Assembly (NCBI RefSeq): GCF_003334405.1
Contig: NZ_QOWM01000009.1
Source of the DNA: Escherichia coli
GTDB lineage: Bacteria; Pseudomonadota; Gammaproteobacteria; Enterobacterales; Enterobacteriaceae
Length of the DNA stretch: 64,000 nt
Strand: one strand, 5' to 3'
Made by a program: the position numbers. Each line of letters begins with the position of its first letter. The stretch's first letter is position 1. Below, one piece after another: positions 9,001 through 12,000 of this stretch.

Positions 9001-12000
9001 TCACACTTATACACTTAAGGCATGGATGGATATTGCTTCTGATATTGTCCGGCTGGACAATGTTACCGATAACAGTTACCCGTAACATTTTTAATTCTTG
9101 TATTGTGGGGGCACCACTTTGAGCACGACTAACCATGATCACCACATTTACGTCTTGATGGGCGTATCGGGCAGCGGCAAATCTGCGGTCGCCAGTGAAG
9201 TGGCGCATCAACTTCATGCCGCGTTTCTTGATGGCGATTTCCTCCATCCACGGCGCAATATCGAAAAAATGGCGTCTGGCGAACCACTGAATGACGACGA
9301 TCGCAAACCGTGGTTGCAGGCGCTGAACGACGCCGCGTTTGCTATGCAGCGCACTAATAAAGTGTCGCTGATCGTCTGTTCTGCATTGAAAAAACACTAT
9401 CGCGACTTGCTGCGTGAAGGTAATCCGAATCTCTCTTTCATCTATTTGAAAGGCGATTTTGATGTGATTGAAAGCCGCCTGAAAGCGCGCAAAGGCCATT
9501 TCTTTAAAACCCAAATGTTGGTGACGCAGTTTGAAACGCTGCAGGAGCCGGGTGCGGACGAAACCGATGTACTGGTGGTGGATATCGATCAACCGCTGGA
9601 AGGTGTTGTGGCAAGCACCATTGAGGTTATTAAAAAAGGCAAATAAGTAGTGACTACATTAACGCTTGTTTTAACAGCAGTAGGGTCTGTTTTACTGCTG
9701 CTGTTTTTAGTCATGAAGGCGCGTATGCACGCTTTCCTGGCTTTAATGGTGGTGTCCATGGGGGCTGGCCTTTTTTCTGGTATGCCGCTCGATAAAATCG
9801 CAGCGACGATGGAAAAAGGGATGGGAGGCACCCTCGGCTTCCTGGCGGTGGTTGTCGCCCTGGGAGCTATGTTTGGCAAGATCTTACATGAAACCGGCGC
9901 AGTCGATCAGATTGCCGTCAAAATGCTCAAATCCTTCGGTCACAGCCGCGCGCATTATGCCATCGGCCTTGCGGGGCTGGTCTGTGCGCTACCGCTGTTC
10001 TTTGAAGTGGCGATAGTTCTGCTGATTAGCGTTGCTTTCTCAATGGCGCGCCACACCGGTACGAACCTGGTGAAGCTGGTAATCCCATTATTTGCAGGCG
10101 TGGCGGCAGCGGCGGCATTTCTGGTGCCTGGACCAGCGCCGATGCTGCTGGCATCGCAGATGAATGCCGACTTTGGCTGGATGATCCTGATTGGCCTGTG
10201 TGCGGCAATTCCGGGAATGATTATTGCCGGGCCGCTGTGGGGTAACTTCATCAGCCGTTACGTTGAGCTGCATATTCCTGACGACATCAGCGAACCGCAT
10301 CTCGGCGAAGGCAAAATGCCATCTTTCGGATTCAGCCTGTCGCTGATCCTGCTGCCGCTGGTGCTGGTAGGGCTGAAAACCATTGCCGCGCGTTTTGTGC
10401 CGGAAGGATCAACTGCTTACGAATGGTTTGAGTTTATCGGTCATCCGTTTACCGCGATTCTGGTTGCTTGTCTGGTGGCGATTTACGGTCTGGCAATGCG
10501 TCAGGGCATGCCAAAAGACAAAGTGATGGAGATTTGCGGTCACGCGCTGCAACCGGCGGGGATCATTCTGCTGGTGATTGGTGCGGGCGGCGTGTTCAAA
10601 CAGGTGCTGGTTGACTCTGGCGTAGGTCCGGCACTGGGCGAAGCGTTAACCGGCATGGGCCTGCCGATTGCTATCACCTGCTTCGTGCTGGCAGCTGCAG
10701 TGCGCATCATTCAGGGTTCTGCCACCGTAGCCTGTTTAACGGCGGTAGGACTGGTGATGCCGGTTATTGAACAACTGAACTACTCCGGTGCGCAAATGGC
10801 GGCGCTGTCGATTTGTATCGCTGGTGGTTCGATTGTTGTCAGCCACGTTAACGACGCCGGTTTCTGGTTGTTCGGTAAATTTACCGGCGCGACCGAAGCC
10901 GAAACGCTGAAAACCTGGACCATGATGGAAACCATCCTCGGCACTGTCGGTGCCATCGTTGGGATGATTGCGTTCCAGCTGTTGAGTTAAGTTTGTTCGC
11001 CCGGTAGTTGTGACGCTACCGGGTTCTTTTCGAAAAACTCTCCTCGTTACCCCTTCATCCACATTCGAATGCCGTCGAGGAACATCTGGGTTGCCATCAT
11101 CACCAGAATCAATCCCATCAGGCGTTCAAGTGCGTTCACCCCTTTCTCGCCCAGCAGACGTAAAAATAGCGAAGACTGTAGCAGGATGACAAAGGTGCCG
11201 CCCCAGGCCAGCAGCAGAGCAATCACCAGATGCCCCATCTGATTCGGGTACTGATGAGACAACAACATCAGCGTGGCGAGAATAGTCGGCCCGGCGACTA
11301 ACGGAATTGCCAACGGCACGATAAATGGCTCTTCACCTGCCGGAAGCCCGCTGCTATTTCCTGAAGCGCTGGGGAAAATCATTTTAATGGCGATCAGAAA
11401 CAGAATGATGCCGCCAGAAATGGAGACGGTTTCTGCTCGTAGGCTAAGAAATGCCAGAATTTTCTCACCCGCAAACAGGAACACCAGCATCACCAGGAGA
11501 GCAATAAGCAACTCTCGCACCATGATTGCCCGCCGTCTTTTCGGTTCAGTATGTTTCAGTACGGACATGAAAATAGGTAGGTTTCCGAGCGGATCCATAA
11601 TCAGGATCAATAAAACTGCTGCAGAAATGATTTCATTCATAACTCAAATTCCCTGATAATTGCCGCGGACTTTCTGCGTGCTAACAAAGCAGGATAAGTC
11701 GCATTACTGATGGCTTCGCTATCATTGATTAATTTCACTTGCGACTTTGGCTGCTTTTTGTATGGTGAAAGATGTGCCAAGAGGAGACCGGCACATTTAT
11801 ACAGCACACATCTTTGCAGGAAAAAAACGCTTATGAAAAATGTTGGTTTTATCGGCTGGCGCGGTATGGTCGGCTCCGTTCTCATGCAACGCATGGTTGA
11901 AGAGCGCGACTTCGACGCCATTCGCCCTGTCTTCTTTTCTACTTCTCAGCTTGGCCAGGCTGCGCCGTCTTTTGGCGGAACCACTGGCACACTTCAGGAT

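What the first reader, a model, noticed from the sequence alone, without database searches (positions are those of the whole stretch)
9060..9090. GntR operators at two distant gluconate loci in one window
Palindromes matching the GntR operator consensus occur upstream of gntKU (9060-9090, two overlapping copies) and upstream of gntT (40315-40329, minus strand). The repressor gene gntR and both gluconate transporter paralogues (gntU, gntT) plus the kinase (gntK) are all inside the same 64 kb. This is a compact example of a split regulon.
Basis: partly seen in the sequence, partly recalled or inferred. Interest (0 to 1): 0.3.

Follow-up and report, generated by a model that had tools for sequence, protein, structure and literature searches.

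The report
Known E. coli GntR gluconate operators
These are the already characterised binding sites where the E. coli gluconate repressor GntR shuts off the gluconate kinase/transporter genes gntKU and gntT; the sites are real and conserved, and they are textbook regulation rather than anything new.

Summary
The window is identical to E. coli K-12 MG1655 over the stretch tested, and its annotation confirms gntR, gntK, gntU and gntT. There are two 16-bp sites overlapping by 3 bp at 9060-9075 and 9073-9088, upstream of gntK, and one at 40314-40329 over the -10 box of gntT.

The sites are not chance. The consensus ATGTTACNNGTAACAT with up to 2 mismatches gives 3 hits against 0.08 expected. A weight matrix built only from sites outside the window ranks these four sites as its top four hits.

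The 29-bp gntK double operator is 92-97% conserved across 80 Enterobacteriaceae species, while its flanks are 51-57% conserved. All 13 GntT-orthologue loci examined carry two sites.

Two of the 16-mers are used in published work as GntR operators that respond to gluconate. The overlapping gntKU pair is cited in the literature as experimentally functional.

Three caveats apply. GntR is a LacI-family protein, not a GntR-family one. The regulon also reaches edd-eda and idnK/idnDOTR outside the window. In Yersinia, Brenneria and Biostraticola the GntT-type gene lies beside gntK and/or gntR, so there the locus is not split.

Verdict: confirmed, already known, low interest.

The parts
7985..8980 (+). 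gntR, the LacI-family gluconate repressor (331 aa)
   Evidence: NCBIfam NF011563 equivalog, 776 bits against a cutoff of 433. Pfam LacI HTH plus Peripla_BP_1/3/4 domains. RefSeq annotation. No operator-like site lies upstream of gntR itself.
8990..9005 (+). CRP-like site TTTGAAGTAGCTCACA upstream of the gntK promoter
   Evidence: One mismatch to TGTGAN6TCACA. The window-wide count of such matches is no more than chance (20 found, 25 expected), so support comes from conservation of the half-sites in 80 species (84% identity) and from the literature statement that the gnt genes are activated by cAMP-CRP (PMC2230225). The position, about -70 from the inferred start site, is an inference.
9033..9061 (+). 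Inferred gntKU promoter: -35 TTGCTT (9033-9038), 17-bp spacer, -10 GACAAT (9056-9061)
   Evidence: The two hexamers are 99.4% and 98.7% conserved across 80 Enterobacteriaceae loci, while the spacer between them is 57% conserved. The promoter is too weak (7 of 12 matches) to pass the consensus scanner, as expected for a CRP-dependent promoter. The transcription start was not mapped here.
9060..9075 (.). gntKU operator 1, ATGTTACCGATAACAG, overlapping the end of the -10 box and the inferred start site
   Evidence: Weight-matrix score 21.4. 97% conserved in 80 species. The identical 16-mer was used as the GntR recognition site in a gluconate-responsive mammalian gene switch, and deleting it or inserting 2 bp at its centre abolished the response (PMC10450161).
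9073..9088 (.). gntKU operator 2, CAGTTACCCGTAACAT, overlapping operator 1 by 3 bp, with centres 13 bp apart
   Evidence: Weight-matrix score 17.4. 92% conserved in 80 species. PMC4052901 states that overlapping GntR sites about 13 bp apart upstream of E. coli gntKU were shown to be functional, citing Tsunedomi 2003a. The whole element is also a 15+15 nt inverted repeat centred on 9074.
9119..9646 (+). gntK, gluconokinase (TTG start)
   Evidence: NCBIfam NF008583, 374 bits against a cutoff of 265. RefSeq annotation.
9650..10990 (+). gntU, gluconate transporter, co-oriented with gntK and starting 4 nt after it
   Evidence: NCBIfam NF007781, 916 bits against a cutoff of 625. RefSeq annotation.
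38837..40153 (-). gntT, the GntI-system gluconate transporter
   Evidence: NCBIfam NF011560, 931 bits against a cutoff of 744. RefSeq annotation.
40173..40188 (.). gntT operator 2, ACGTTACCCATAACAA on the - strand. It lies in the transcribed leader, with its centre 27.5 nt upstream of the ATG and 141 bp downstream of operator 1.
   Evidence: Weight-matrix score 17.1. It is nearly invariant and sits at the same distance from the ATG (-26.5 to -28.5) in the eight Enterobacteriaceae-type gntT loci.
40314..40329 (.). gntT operator 1, ATGTTACCCGTATCAT on the - strand, covering the spacer and the -10 hexamer TATCAT
   Evidence: Weight-matrix score 23.6, the best in the window. It is invariant in the four aligned genera. 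The identical 16-mer was used as 'the E. coli GntR operator' in a cell-free circuit, where GntR repressed and gluconate de-repressed, and that paper notes TATCAT serving as the -10 (bioRxiv 10.1101/2023.01.10.523462).
40314..40343 (-). gntT promoter-like site: -35 TTCTCA (40343-40338), 18-bp spacer, -10 TATCAT (40319-40314)
   Evidence: Promoter scan, 9 of 12 matches. The block GGTGATTCTC is invariant in 4 genera.
40371..40386 (-). CRP-like site TATGACCAACCTCTCA, centred about 71 bp upstream of the inferred gntT start site
   Evidence: Two mismatches to the CRP consensus, which alone is at chance level. The half-sites ATGAC / TC.CA are conserved. The literature reports activation of the gnt genes by cAMP-CRP (PMC2230225).

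Best explanation
These are the operators of the E. coli GntI gluconate system, bound by the LacI-family repressor GntR, which is encoded at 7985-8980.

Without gluconate, GntR dimers sit on 16-bp imperfect palindromes (consensus ATGTTACC/CGTAACAT). At gntKU, two sites overlap by 3 bp and cover the end of the -10 box, the start site and the first ~20 nt of the transcript. They therefore block RNA polymerase binding or escape. At gntT, one site covers the spacer and -10 hexamer. A second site lies 141 bp downstream in the leader, 27 nt before the ATG, where it could act as a roadblock or a partner for a repression loop.

Gluconate (and 6-phosphogluconate at higher concentration) binds the sugar-binding domain of GntR and releases it from the DNA. 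cAMP-CRP sites about 70 bp upstream of each start add catabolite control.

What is shown here: the existence of the sites, their statistical excess, their position relative to promoter elements, their conservation across species, and the gene identities.

What is taken from the literature: GntR binding, release by gluconate, CRP activation, and the functionality of the overlapping pair.

What is inferred: the exact start sites, the CRP positions, and whether repression works by looping or by roadblock.
For: Sequence and statistics:
- Consensus with up to 2 mismatches gives 3 hits against 0.08 expected.
- A weight matrix from sites outside the window ranks the four sites as its top four, and 0 of 200 simulations match this.

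Context:
- The sites lie only in the gntR-gntK and nfuA-gntT intergenic regions and overlap promoter elements.

Conservation:
- The 29-bp gntK double operator has only 8 variants in 81 sequences and is 97%/92% identical. The spacer has 62 variants and the leader 58, at 51-57% identity.
- In the 80 related gntK loci of up to ~5.5 kb each, every hit with up to 2 mismatches falls between -114 and -32 of the gntK start.
- All 13 GntT-orthologue loci carry two sites.
- gntT operators O1 and O2 are invariant or nearly so between divergent leaders.

Repressor:
- LacI HTH plus periplasmic-binding-protein fold, and a GntR equivalog model.

Same motif at other regulon members:
- edd has two sites and idnK/idnD has one.

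Literature:
- PMC10450161, bioRxiv 10.1101/2023.01.10.523462, PMC2230225, PMC4052901 and PMC12195362.
Against: Nothing contradicts the assignment. The gaps are these.
- The primary papers (Izu 1997; Porco 1997; Peekhaus & Conway 1998; Tsunedomi 2003a) are not in the held library. Binding data are therefore cited second-hand, and the start sites are inferred.
- The gntK promoter is too weak to pass the consensus scanner.
- CRP-consensus matches in the window are no more frequent than chance.
- For the looping idea at gntT, O1-O2 spacing in relatives is 65, 141, 141, 141, 144, 144 and 146 bp. There is no conserved helical phase, which fits a roadblock or flexible cooperation at least as well as a rigid loop.
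- PMC4052901 notes that dimers on sites 13 bp apart should not be able to contact each other, so how both overlapping sites are occupied is unexplained.
Confidence: 0.96

Rival explanations
1. The same palindromes serve mainly as sites for the paralogous LacI-family regulator IdnR (GntH) rather than for GntR. This would give cross-control of GntI by the GntII/idonate system.
For: IdnR is the closest paralogue: the window's GntR scores 402 bits on the IdnR model. The idnK/idnD intergenic region carries a site of the same motif. PMC4052901 states that GntR recognises the IdnR sites. [quoted passage not shown]
Against: This is an addition, not an alternative. gntR sits directly next to the gntKU operators. 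GntR alone repressed from the gntT 16-mer in a purified cell-free system, and acted through the gntKU 16-mer in mammalian cells that have no IdnR.
Confidence: 0.3
2. The palindromes act as RNA hairpins in the gntK and gntT leaders, affecting stability, translation or attenuation, rather than as protein-binding DNA.
For: The gntK element is a 15+15 nt inverted repeat. gntK O2 and gntT O2 lie in transcribed leader sequence.
Against: With the inferred start near 9068, the left arm is not transcribed. Variation across 80 species is not compensatory: 9088 is A in about 70 of 81 sequences, while its would-be partner 9060 stays A. gntT O1 lies in the promoter and is not in the transcript. The same 16-bp motif recurs at unrelated positions (upstream of edd, and between idnK and idnD) and in different arrangements, as expected for a protein site.
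Confidence: 0.02
3. The matches are chance palindromes in AT-rich intergenic DNA.
For: With 3 mismatches allowed, the looser pattern is not significantly enriched (22 found, 12.2 expected). Weak extra hits occur inside IS1 (2947) and hslO (56688).
Against: At stringent thresholds the excess is large (3 found, 0.08 expected; top four weight-matrix hits). All four sites lie in front of gnt genes and are conserved across genera while their flanks diverge.
Confidence: 0.01

Closest known systems
E. coli GntR operators of the GntI regulon (gntKU, gntT, edd-eda), as described by Izu et al. 1997, Porco et al. 1997, Peekhaus & Conway 1998 and Tsunedomi et al. 2003
   Same: This is the identical locus. 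The tested stretch of the window is 100% identical to MG1655. The 16-mers ATGTTACCGATAACAG and ATGTTACCCGTATCAT are the published operator sequences, letter for letter.
   Different: Nothing. This is the type example itself.
LacI/GalR-family operators in general (lac O1/O2/O3, gal OE/OI, PurR boxes)
   Same: A 16-bp palindrome with a central CG or CC step, bound by a dimer with an N-terminal HTH and hinge helix. There are multiple operators per promoter, one over the promoter and one downstream (gntT O1/O2 141 bp apart; edd 222 bp apart). A small sugar ligand induces the system.
   Different: GntR has 331 aa. I did not test whether it has LacI's C-terminal tetramerisation helix, so any loop may need another mechanism, as with GalR. 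The gntKU pair overlaps with centres 13 bp apart. PMC4052901 reports this as a distinct peak of intersite spacing among LacI-family sites and finds it hard to reconcile with the available structures.
Bacillus subtilis GntR, founder of the GntR family (PF00392)
   Same: It has the same name, is induced by the same ligand (gluconate), and has the same physiological role as repressor of gluconate kinase and permease genes.
   Different: It belongs to an unrelated protein family. The window's GntR has a LacI-type HTH and a periplasmic-binding-protein fold, and no GntR-family winged-helix domain was among the Pfam matches listed. Its operator motif is different, so a GntR-family weight matrix would not apply.

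Membership tests
E. coli GntR (LacI-family) operator | Match to the 16-bp palindromic consensus ATGTTACC/CGTAACAT, above chance | tested here: met
   1-3 mismatches per site. 3 hits against 0.08 expected at up to 2 mismatches. Top four hits of an independent weight matrix.
E. coli GntR (LacI-family) operator | Location in the promoter or leader of a gluconate-catabolism gene, overlapping core promoter elements or lying just downstream of them | tested here: met
   gntT O1 covers the -10 TATCAT. gntK O1 overlaps the conserved -10 GACAAT. O2 at each gene lies in the leader. The start sites are inferred, not mapped.
E. coli GntR (LacI-family) operator | A cognate LacI-family repressor gene is present | tested here: met
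   gntR at 7985-8980: NF011563 at 776 bits, and Pfam LacI plus Peripla_BP domains.
E. coli GntR (LacI-family) operator | Conservation of the sites, but not their flanks, in orthologous promoters of other species | tested here: met
   80 gntK loci: operators 92-97% identical, flanks 51-57%. 13 gntT-orthologue loci: two sites in every one.
E. coli GntR (LacI-family) operator | Direct binding by GntR, released by gluconate | not testable with these tools
   Literature only. PMC2230225 cites Peekhaus & Conway 1998 for GntR binding to the gntT promoter and its inhibition by gluconate. The exact 16-mers are functional in cell-free and mammalian switches. The overlapping gntKU sites are reported as functional. 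The primary papers are not held.
GntR family of transcription factors (PF00392; FadR/HutC/MocR/YtrA subfamilies) and their operators | The regulator has an N-terminal GntR-type winged helix-turn-helix | tested here: not met
   The Pfam scan finds LacI (PF00356) and Peripla_BP_1/3/4 only. No PF00392 match is listed.
Repression loop between two separated operators (lac/gal type) at gntT | Operator spacing conserved in helical phase | tested here: inconclusive
   Centre-to-centre spacing is 141 bp in E. coli, and 65, 141, 141, 144, 144 and 146 bp in six related loci. The phase is not conserved, but the sample is small and flexible loops tolerate some variation.

The most novel reading that the evidence does not exclude
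One point my evidence leaves open is how GntR occupies the overlapping gntKU operators. The centres are 13 bp apart and 3 bp are shared, and the arrangement is invariant in 80 Enterobacteriaceae species. A 14-bp-offset version sits in front of GntT orthologues in Pantoea, Erwinia, Yersinia, Brenneria and Biostraticola. PMC4052901 states that LacI-family dimers at this spacing should not contact each other, and speculates about a special binding mode with partial DNA unwinding. If the 29-31 bp hyper-palindrome is bound as one unit by a non-canonical GntR assembly, rather than by two independent dimers, that would be a new DNA-recognition mode for the LacI family. This locus would be the natural model for it.
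Probability: 0.12. Interest if true: 0.45.

Novelty: already known. Interest (0 to 1): 0.06.

Why it matters
For discovery it matters little. This is the reference example of GntR control of the GntI gluconate system in E. coli K-12, mapped in the 1990s and already reused as a synthetic-biology part.

It does work as a positive control for the scan. A reader without tools located three of the four real operators and named the genes correctly.

Two side points have modest value. First, the double-operator design is universal in the relatives examined but comes in two forms: an overlapping pair, or a promoter site plus a leader site. Second, the binding geometry of the overlapping pair is still unexplained in the literature.

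Tried and rejected
1. I tried to read the primary papers (PMID 9537375, PMC107090, PMC178870, PMC150117). None is held. The reported positions I recall from memory (one operator over the -10, one near +120, CRP near -71) are therefore not cited as results. My inferred geometry puts gntT O2 near +125 from a start about 7 nt after TATCAT.

2. The first loose pattern, ATGTTACNNNTAACAT with 3 mismatches, was not significantly enriched (22 found, 12.2 expected). I replaced it with the correctly symmetric 7+2+7 pattern and with an independent weight matrix.

3. The consensus promoter scan found no + strand promoter in front of gntK. I inferred the promoter from cross-species conservation instead.

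4. CRP-consensus matches in the window are at chance level, so the CRP sites rest on conservation and the literature.

5. The extra motif hits at 2947-2962 (inside IS1) and 56688-56703 (inside hslO) are treated as chance. They lie within coding sequence and score near the tail of the null distribution.

6. The RNA-hairpin reading is rejected because the variation is not compensatory.

7. Rfam found nothing at either locus. Its only hit in the window is RyhB.
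Full report
**Identity of the window.** The stretch 7900-11100 is 100% identical to E. coli K-12 MG1655, and a match is present in 5,425 of 5,426 complete E. coli genomes. The RefSeq annotation of the matching record, carried over to window coordinates, gives these genes:
- yhhW
- gntR (7985-8980, + strand)
- gntK (9119-9646, + strand, TTG start)
- gntU (9650-10990, + strand)
- yhgN, asd, the glg operon, glpD/EGR, rtcRBA, malT, malPQ
- gntT (38837-40153, - strand)
- nfuA (40513-41088, - strand)

NCBIfam equivalog models confirm all four gnt products well above their curated cutoffs. Pfam shows that the repressor is a LacI-family protein, with a LacI HTH plus Peripla_BP_1/3/4 domains, and not a member of the GntR family despite its name.

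**Observation check.** At 9060-9088 the sequence is ATGTTACCGATAACAGTTACCCGTAACAT. It contains two 16-bp imperfect palindromes, at 9060-9075 and 9073-9088. They share 3 bp and their centres are 13 bp apart. The whole element is also a 15+15 nt inverted repeat centred on 9074.

Upstream of gntT, the - strand reads ATGTTACCCGTATCAT at 40329-40314. A second gntT site, ACGTTACCCATAACAA (- strand, 40188-40173), lies in the leader 27.5 nt before the ATG.

**Is it more than chance?** The symmetric pattern ATGTTACNNGTAACAT was tested at two stringencies.
- With up to 2 mismatches there are 3 hits against 0.08 expected, and no shuffle out of 100 reached 3.
- With up to 3 mismatches the fourth gnt site appears, along with one hit inside IS1.

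To avoid circularity I built a symmetric weight matrix from 10 distinct sites taken only from outside the window. These were E. coli edd (two sites), idnK/D (one site), and the sites in front of GntT orthologues in Pantoea, Yersinia, Brenneria, Erwinia and Biostraticola. Scanning the window with it gives the four gnt sites as the four best positions, scoring 23.6, 21.4, 17.4 and 17.1. The maximum in 200 first-order Markov simulations averaged 12.5 +/- 2.1, and none had four positions at or above 17.1. The next hits score near the null tail and lie in coding sequence: 56688 inside hslO at 15.3, and 2947 inside IS1 at 14.7.

**Anatomy at gntKU.** Across 80 Enterobacteriaceae species with a GntK at least 90% identical, the upstream region shows a clear phylogenetic footprint.

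| Segment | Coordinates | Identity to the window |
|---|---|---|
| TTGCTT (-35) | 9033-9038 | 99.4% |
| Spacer | 9039-9055 | 57% |
| GACAAT (-10) | 9056-9061 | 98.7% |
| Operator 1 | 9060-9075 | 97% |
| Operator 2 | 9073-9088 | 92% |
| Leader | 9089-9117 | 51%, with many indels |

The 29-bp double operator has 8 variants among 81 sequences. The spacer has 62 variants and the leader 58.

I infer a weak sigma-70 promoter: -35 TTGCTT, a 17-bp spacer and -10 GACAAT. It is too weak for the consensus scanner. O1 then covers the end of the -10 box and the start site, and O2 covers roughly +5 to +20. A CRP-like site, TTTGAAGTAGCTCACA (8990-9005, one mismatch), has conserved half-sites and sits about 70 bp upstream of the inferred start. 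In the 80 related loci, every motif hit with up to 2 mismatches lies between -114 and -32 of the gntK start codon and nowhere else.

**Anatomy at gntT.** The scanner finds -35 TTCTCA (40343-40338), an 18-bp spacer and -10 TATCAT (40319-40314) on the - strand. O1 (40329-40314) therefore covers the spacer and the -10 box.

In an alignment with three other genera, the following are invariant or nearly so, while the 125 bp between O1 and O2 is largely unalignable:
- the GGTGATTCTC block
- O1
- O2
- the ribosome-binding region

A CRP-like site, TATGACCAACCTCTCA (40386-40371, two mismatches), is centred about 71 bp upstream of the inferred start. The match alone is at chance level. Support comes from partial conservation and from the literature.

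**Related loci.** I examined thirteen loci encoding GntT orthologues of 86-93% identity, scanned. All have two sites, in one of two arrangements.
- In the seven loci with E. coli-type operators (six of them in nfuA-gntT-malQ synteny; the Shimwellia locus has other neighbours), the arrangement is O1 at the promoter plus O2 at -26.5 to -28.5 from the ATG. O1-O2 spacing there is 65, 141, 141, 144, 144 or 146 bp, against 141 bp in E. coli. O2 is thus tied to the start codon and O1 to the promoter, and helical phase is not conserved.
- In Pantoea (two loci), Erwinia, Yersinia, Brenneria and Biostraticola, the two sites overlap with a 14-bp offset and form a near-perfect 30-bp palindrome. This resembles the E. 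coli gntKU arrangement.

In Yersinia and Brenneria the GntT-type gene is divergent from gntK. In Biostraticola it follows gntR directly, next to yhgN-asd. That is the slot occupied by gntU in E. coli. The 'split' of the E. coli regulon therefore looks like a derived, Enterobacteriaceae-type arrangement.

**Rest of the regulon.** Outside the window, in the same genome, there are further sites.
- The zwf-edd intergenic region carries ATTTTACCGGTAACAT, and the first codons of edd carry TTGTTACGCGTAACAA, 222 bp apart.
- The idnK/idnD divergent region carries ACGTTATGCGTAACAT.

The window therefore holds the GntI uptake and phosphorylation part of the regulon, not the whole of it.

**Literature.**
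[quoted passage not shown] It gives ATGTTACCCGTAACAT as the consensus. Deleting the site or inserting 2 bp at its centre abolished the response.
- bioRxiv 10.1101/2023.01.10.523462 used ATGTTACCCGTATCAT, identical to 40329-40314, as 'a 16bp E. coli GntR operator' placed over a -10 box. In a purified cell-free system it showed repression by GntR and relief by gluconate.
- PMC2230225 summarises Peekhaus & Conway 1998. GntR binding to the gntT promoter is inhibited by gluconate, and by 6-phosphogluconate at higher concentration. The gnt genes are activated by cAMP-CRP.
- PMC12195362 states that gntK, gntU and gntT form the GntI system, repressed by a constitutively expressed GntR.
- PMC4052901 notes that overlapping LacI-family sites about 13 bp apart occur upstream of 110 operons. 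It says they were shown to be functional for the GntR sites upstream of E. coli gntKU, and are conserved in more than half of GntR-regulated operons in gamma-proteobacteria. It also says they are hard to reconcile with known structures, because dimers at that distance cannot interact.
- The primary papers themselves are not held.

**Mechanism.** The mechanism is steric repression by a LacI-family dimer at the core promoter (gntT O1, gntK O1). It is reinforced by a second site just downstream (gntK O2) or in the leader (gntT O2). Gluconate induces the system and cAMP-CRP activates it.
- Shown here: the sites, their excess over chance, their positions, their conservation, and the gene identities.
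- From the literature: binding, inducer response, CRP dependence, and function of the overlapping pair.
- Inferred: the start sites, the exact CRP positions, and whether gntT O2 acts by looping or as a roadblock. The variable spacing in relatives gives no support to strict phasing.

**Rivals.**
- Co-use of the sites by the paralogue IdnR/GntH is likely, but it is an addition rather than an alternative.
- An RNA-hairpin role is unlikely. Variation is non-compensatory: 9088 changes from T to A in about 70 of 81 sequences while 9060 stays A. gntT O1 is not transcribed.
- Chance is excluded.

**Verdict.** It is already known and of low interest. The only open corner is the structural mode of binding at the overlapping pair.

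Noticed in passing
window 40173-40188: A second GntR-type operator of gntT (ACGTTACCCATAACAA on the - strand) lies in the leader, 27.5 nt before the ATG. Its distance to the ATG is conserved in the eight Enterobacteriaceae-type loci, while its distance to O1 varies from 65 to 146 bp.
   Followed up: yes
L090 (Yersinia) 925-1200; L091 (Brenneria); L093 (Biostraticola); L089/L096 (Pantoea); L092 (Erwinia): Outside the Enterobacteriaceae, GntT orthologues (86-87% identity) carry an overlapping operator pair with a 14-bp offset that forms a ~30-bp palindrome. In Yersinia, Brenneria and Biostraticola the gene lies beside gntK and/or gntR and yhgN-asd, in the slot that gntU occupies in E. coli. The E. 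coli split into two loci therefore looks derived.
   Followed up: partly
L003 3783-3798 and 4005-4020 (E. coli zwf-edd region); L004 6658-6673 (idnK/idnD): Sites of the same motif lie outside the window. Two flank the edd start codon 222 bp apart, one of them inside the coding sequence. One lies in the idnK/idnD divergent region. The regulon extends beyond the 64 kb.
   Followed up: partly
window 5724-5788 (+): The RyhB small RNA gene (Rfam RF00057, 83 bits) lies between yhhY and yhhX. It is the only Rfam hit in the window.
   Followed up: no
window 2947-2962 and 56688-56703: Weak GntR-motif matches: ATGATTCGGGTAAAAT inside the IS1A transposase gene, and TTGTTACCGTTAATAA inside hslO. Their weight-matrix scores are 14.7 and 15.3, against a null maximum of 12.5 +/- 2.1. 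They are probably chance but were not tested further.
   Followed up: partly
window 40459-40490: An imperfect hairpin (GCCCGAAATGACGCT / AGCGTCGCATCGGGC, 15-nt arms, 2-nt loop) lies just downstream of nfuA, followed by a terminator-like stem at 40446-40428 on the - strand. From memory it resembles a REP-type extragenic palindrome. It separates nfuA from the gntT control region.
   Followed up: no
L087 (Kosakonia) 905-920: A third motif match (CTGTTACCCGTATCTT, 3 mismatches) lies 120 bp upstream of gntT O1 in Kosakonia only. Its significance is unknown.
   Followed up: no
window about 1668-4848: A known K-12 feature, not examined: an IS1A insertion sits beside a YrhA-family gene and an orphan Hcp1/TssD-family gene (tssD, also called yhhZ), between yrhD and yhhY.
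   Followed up: no
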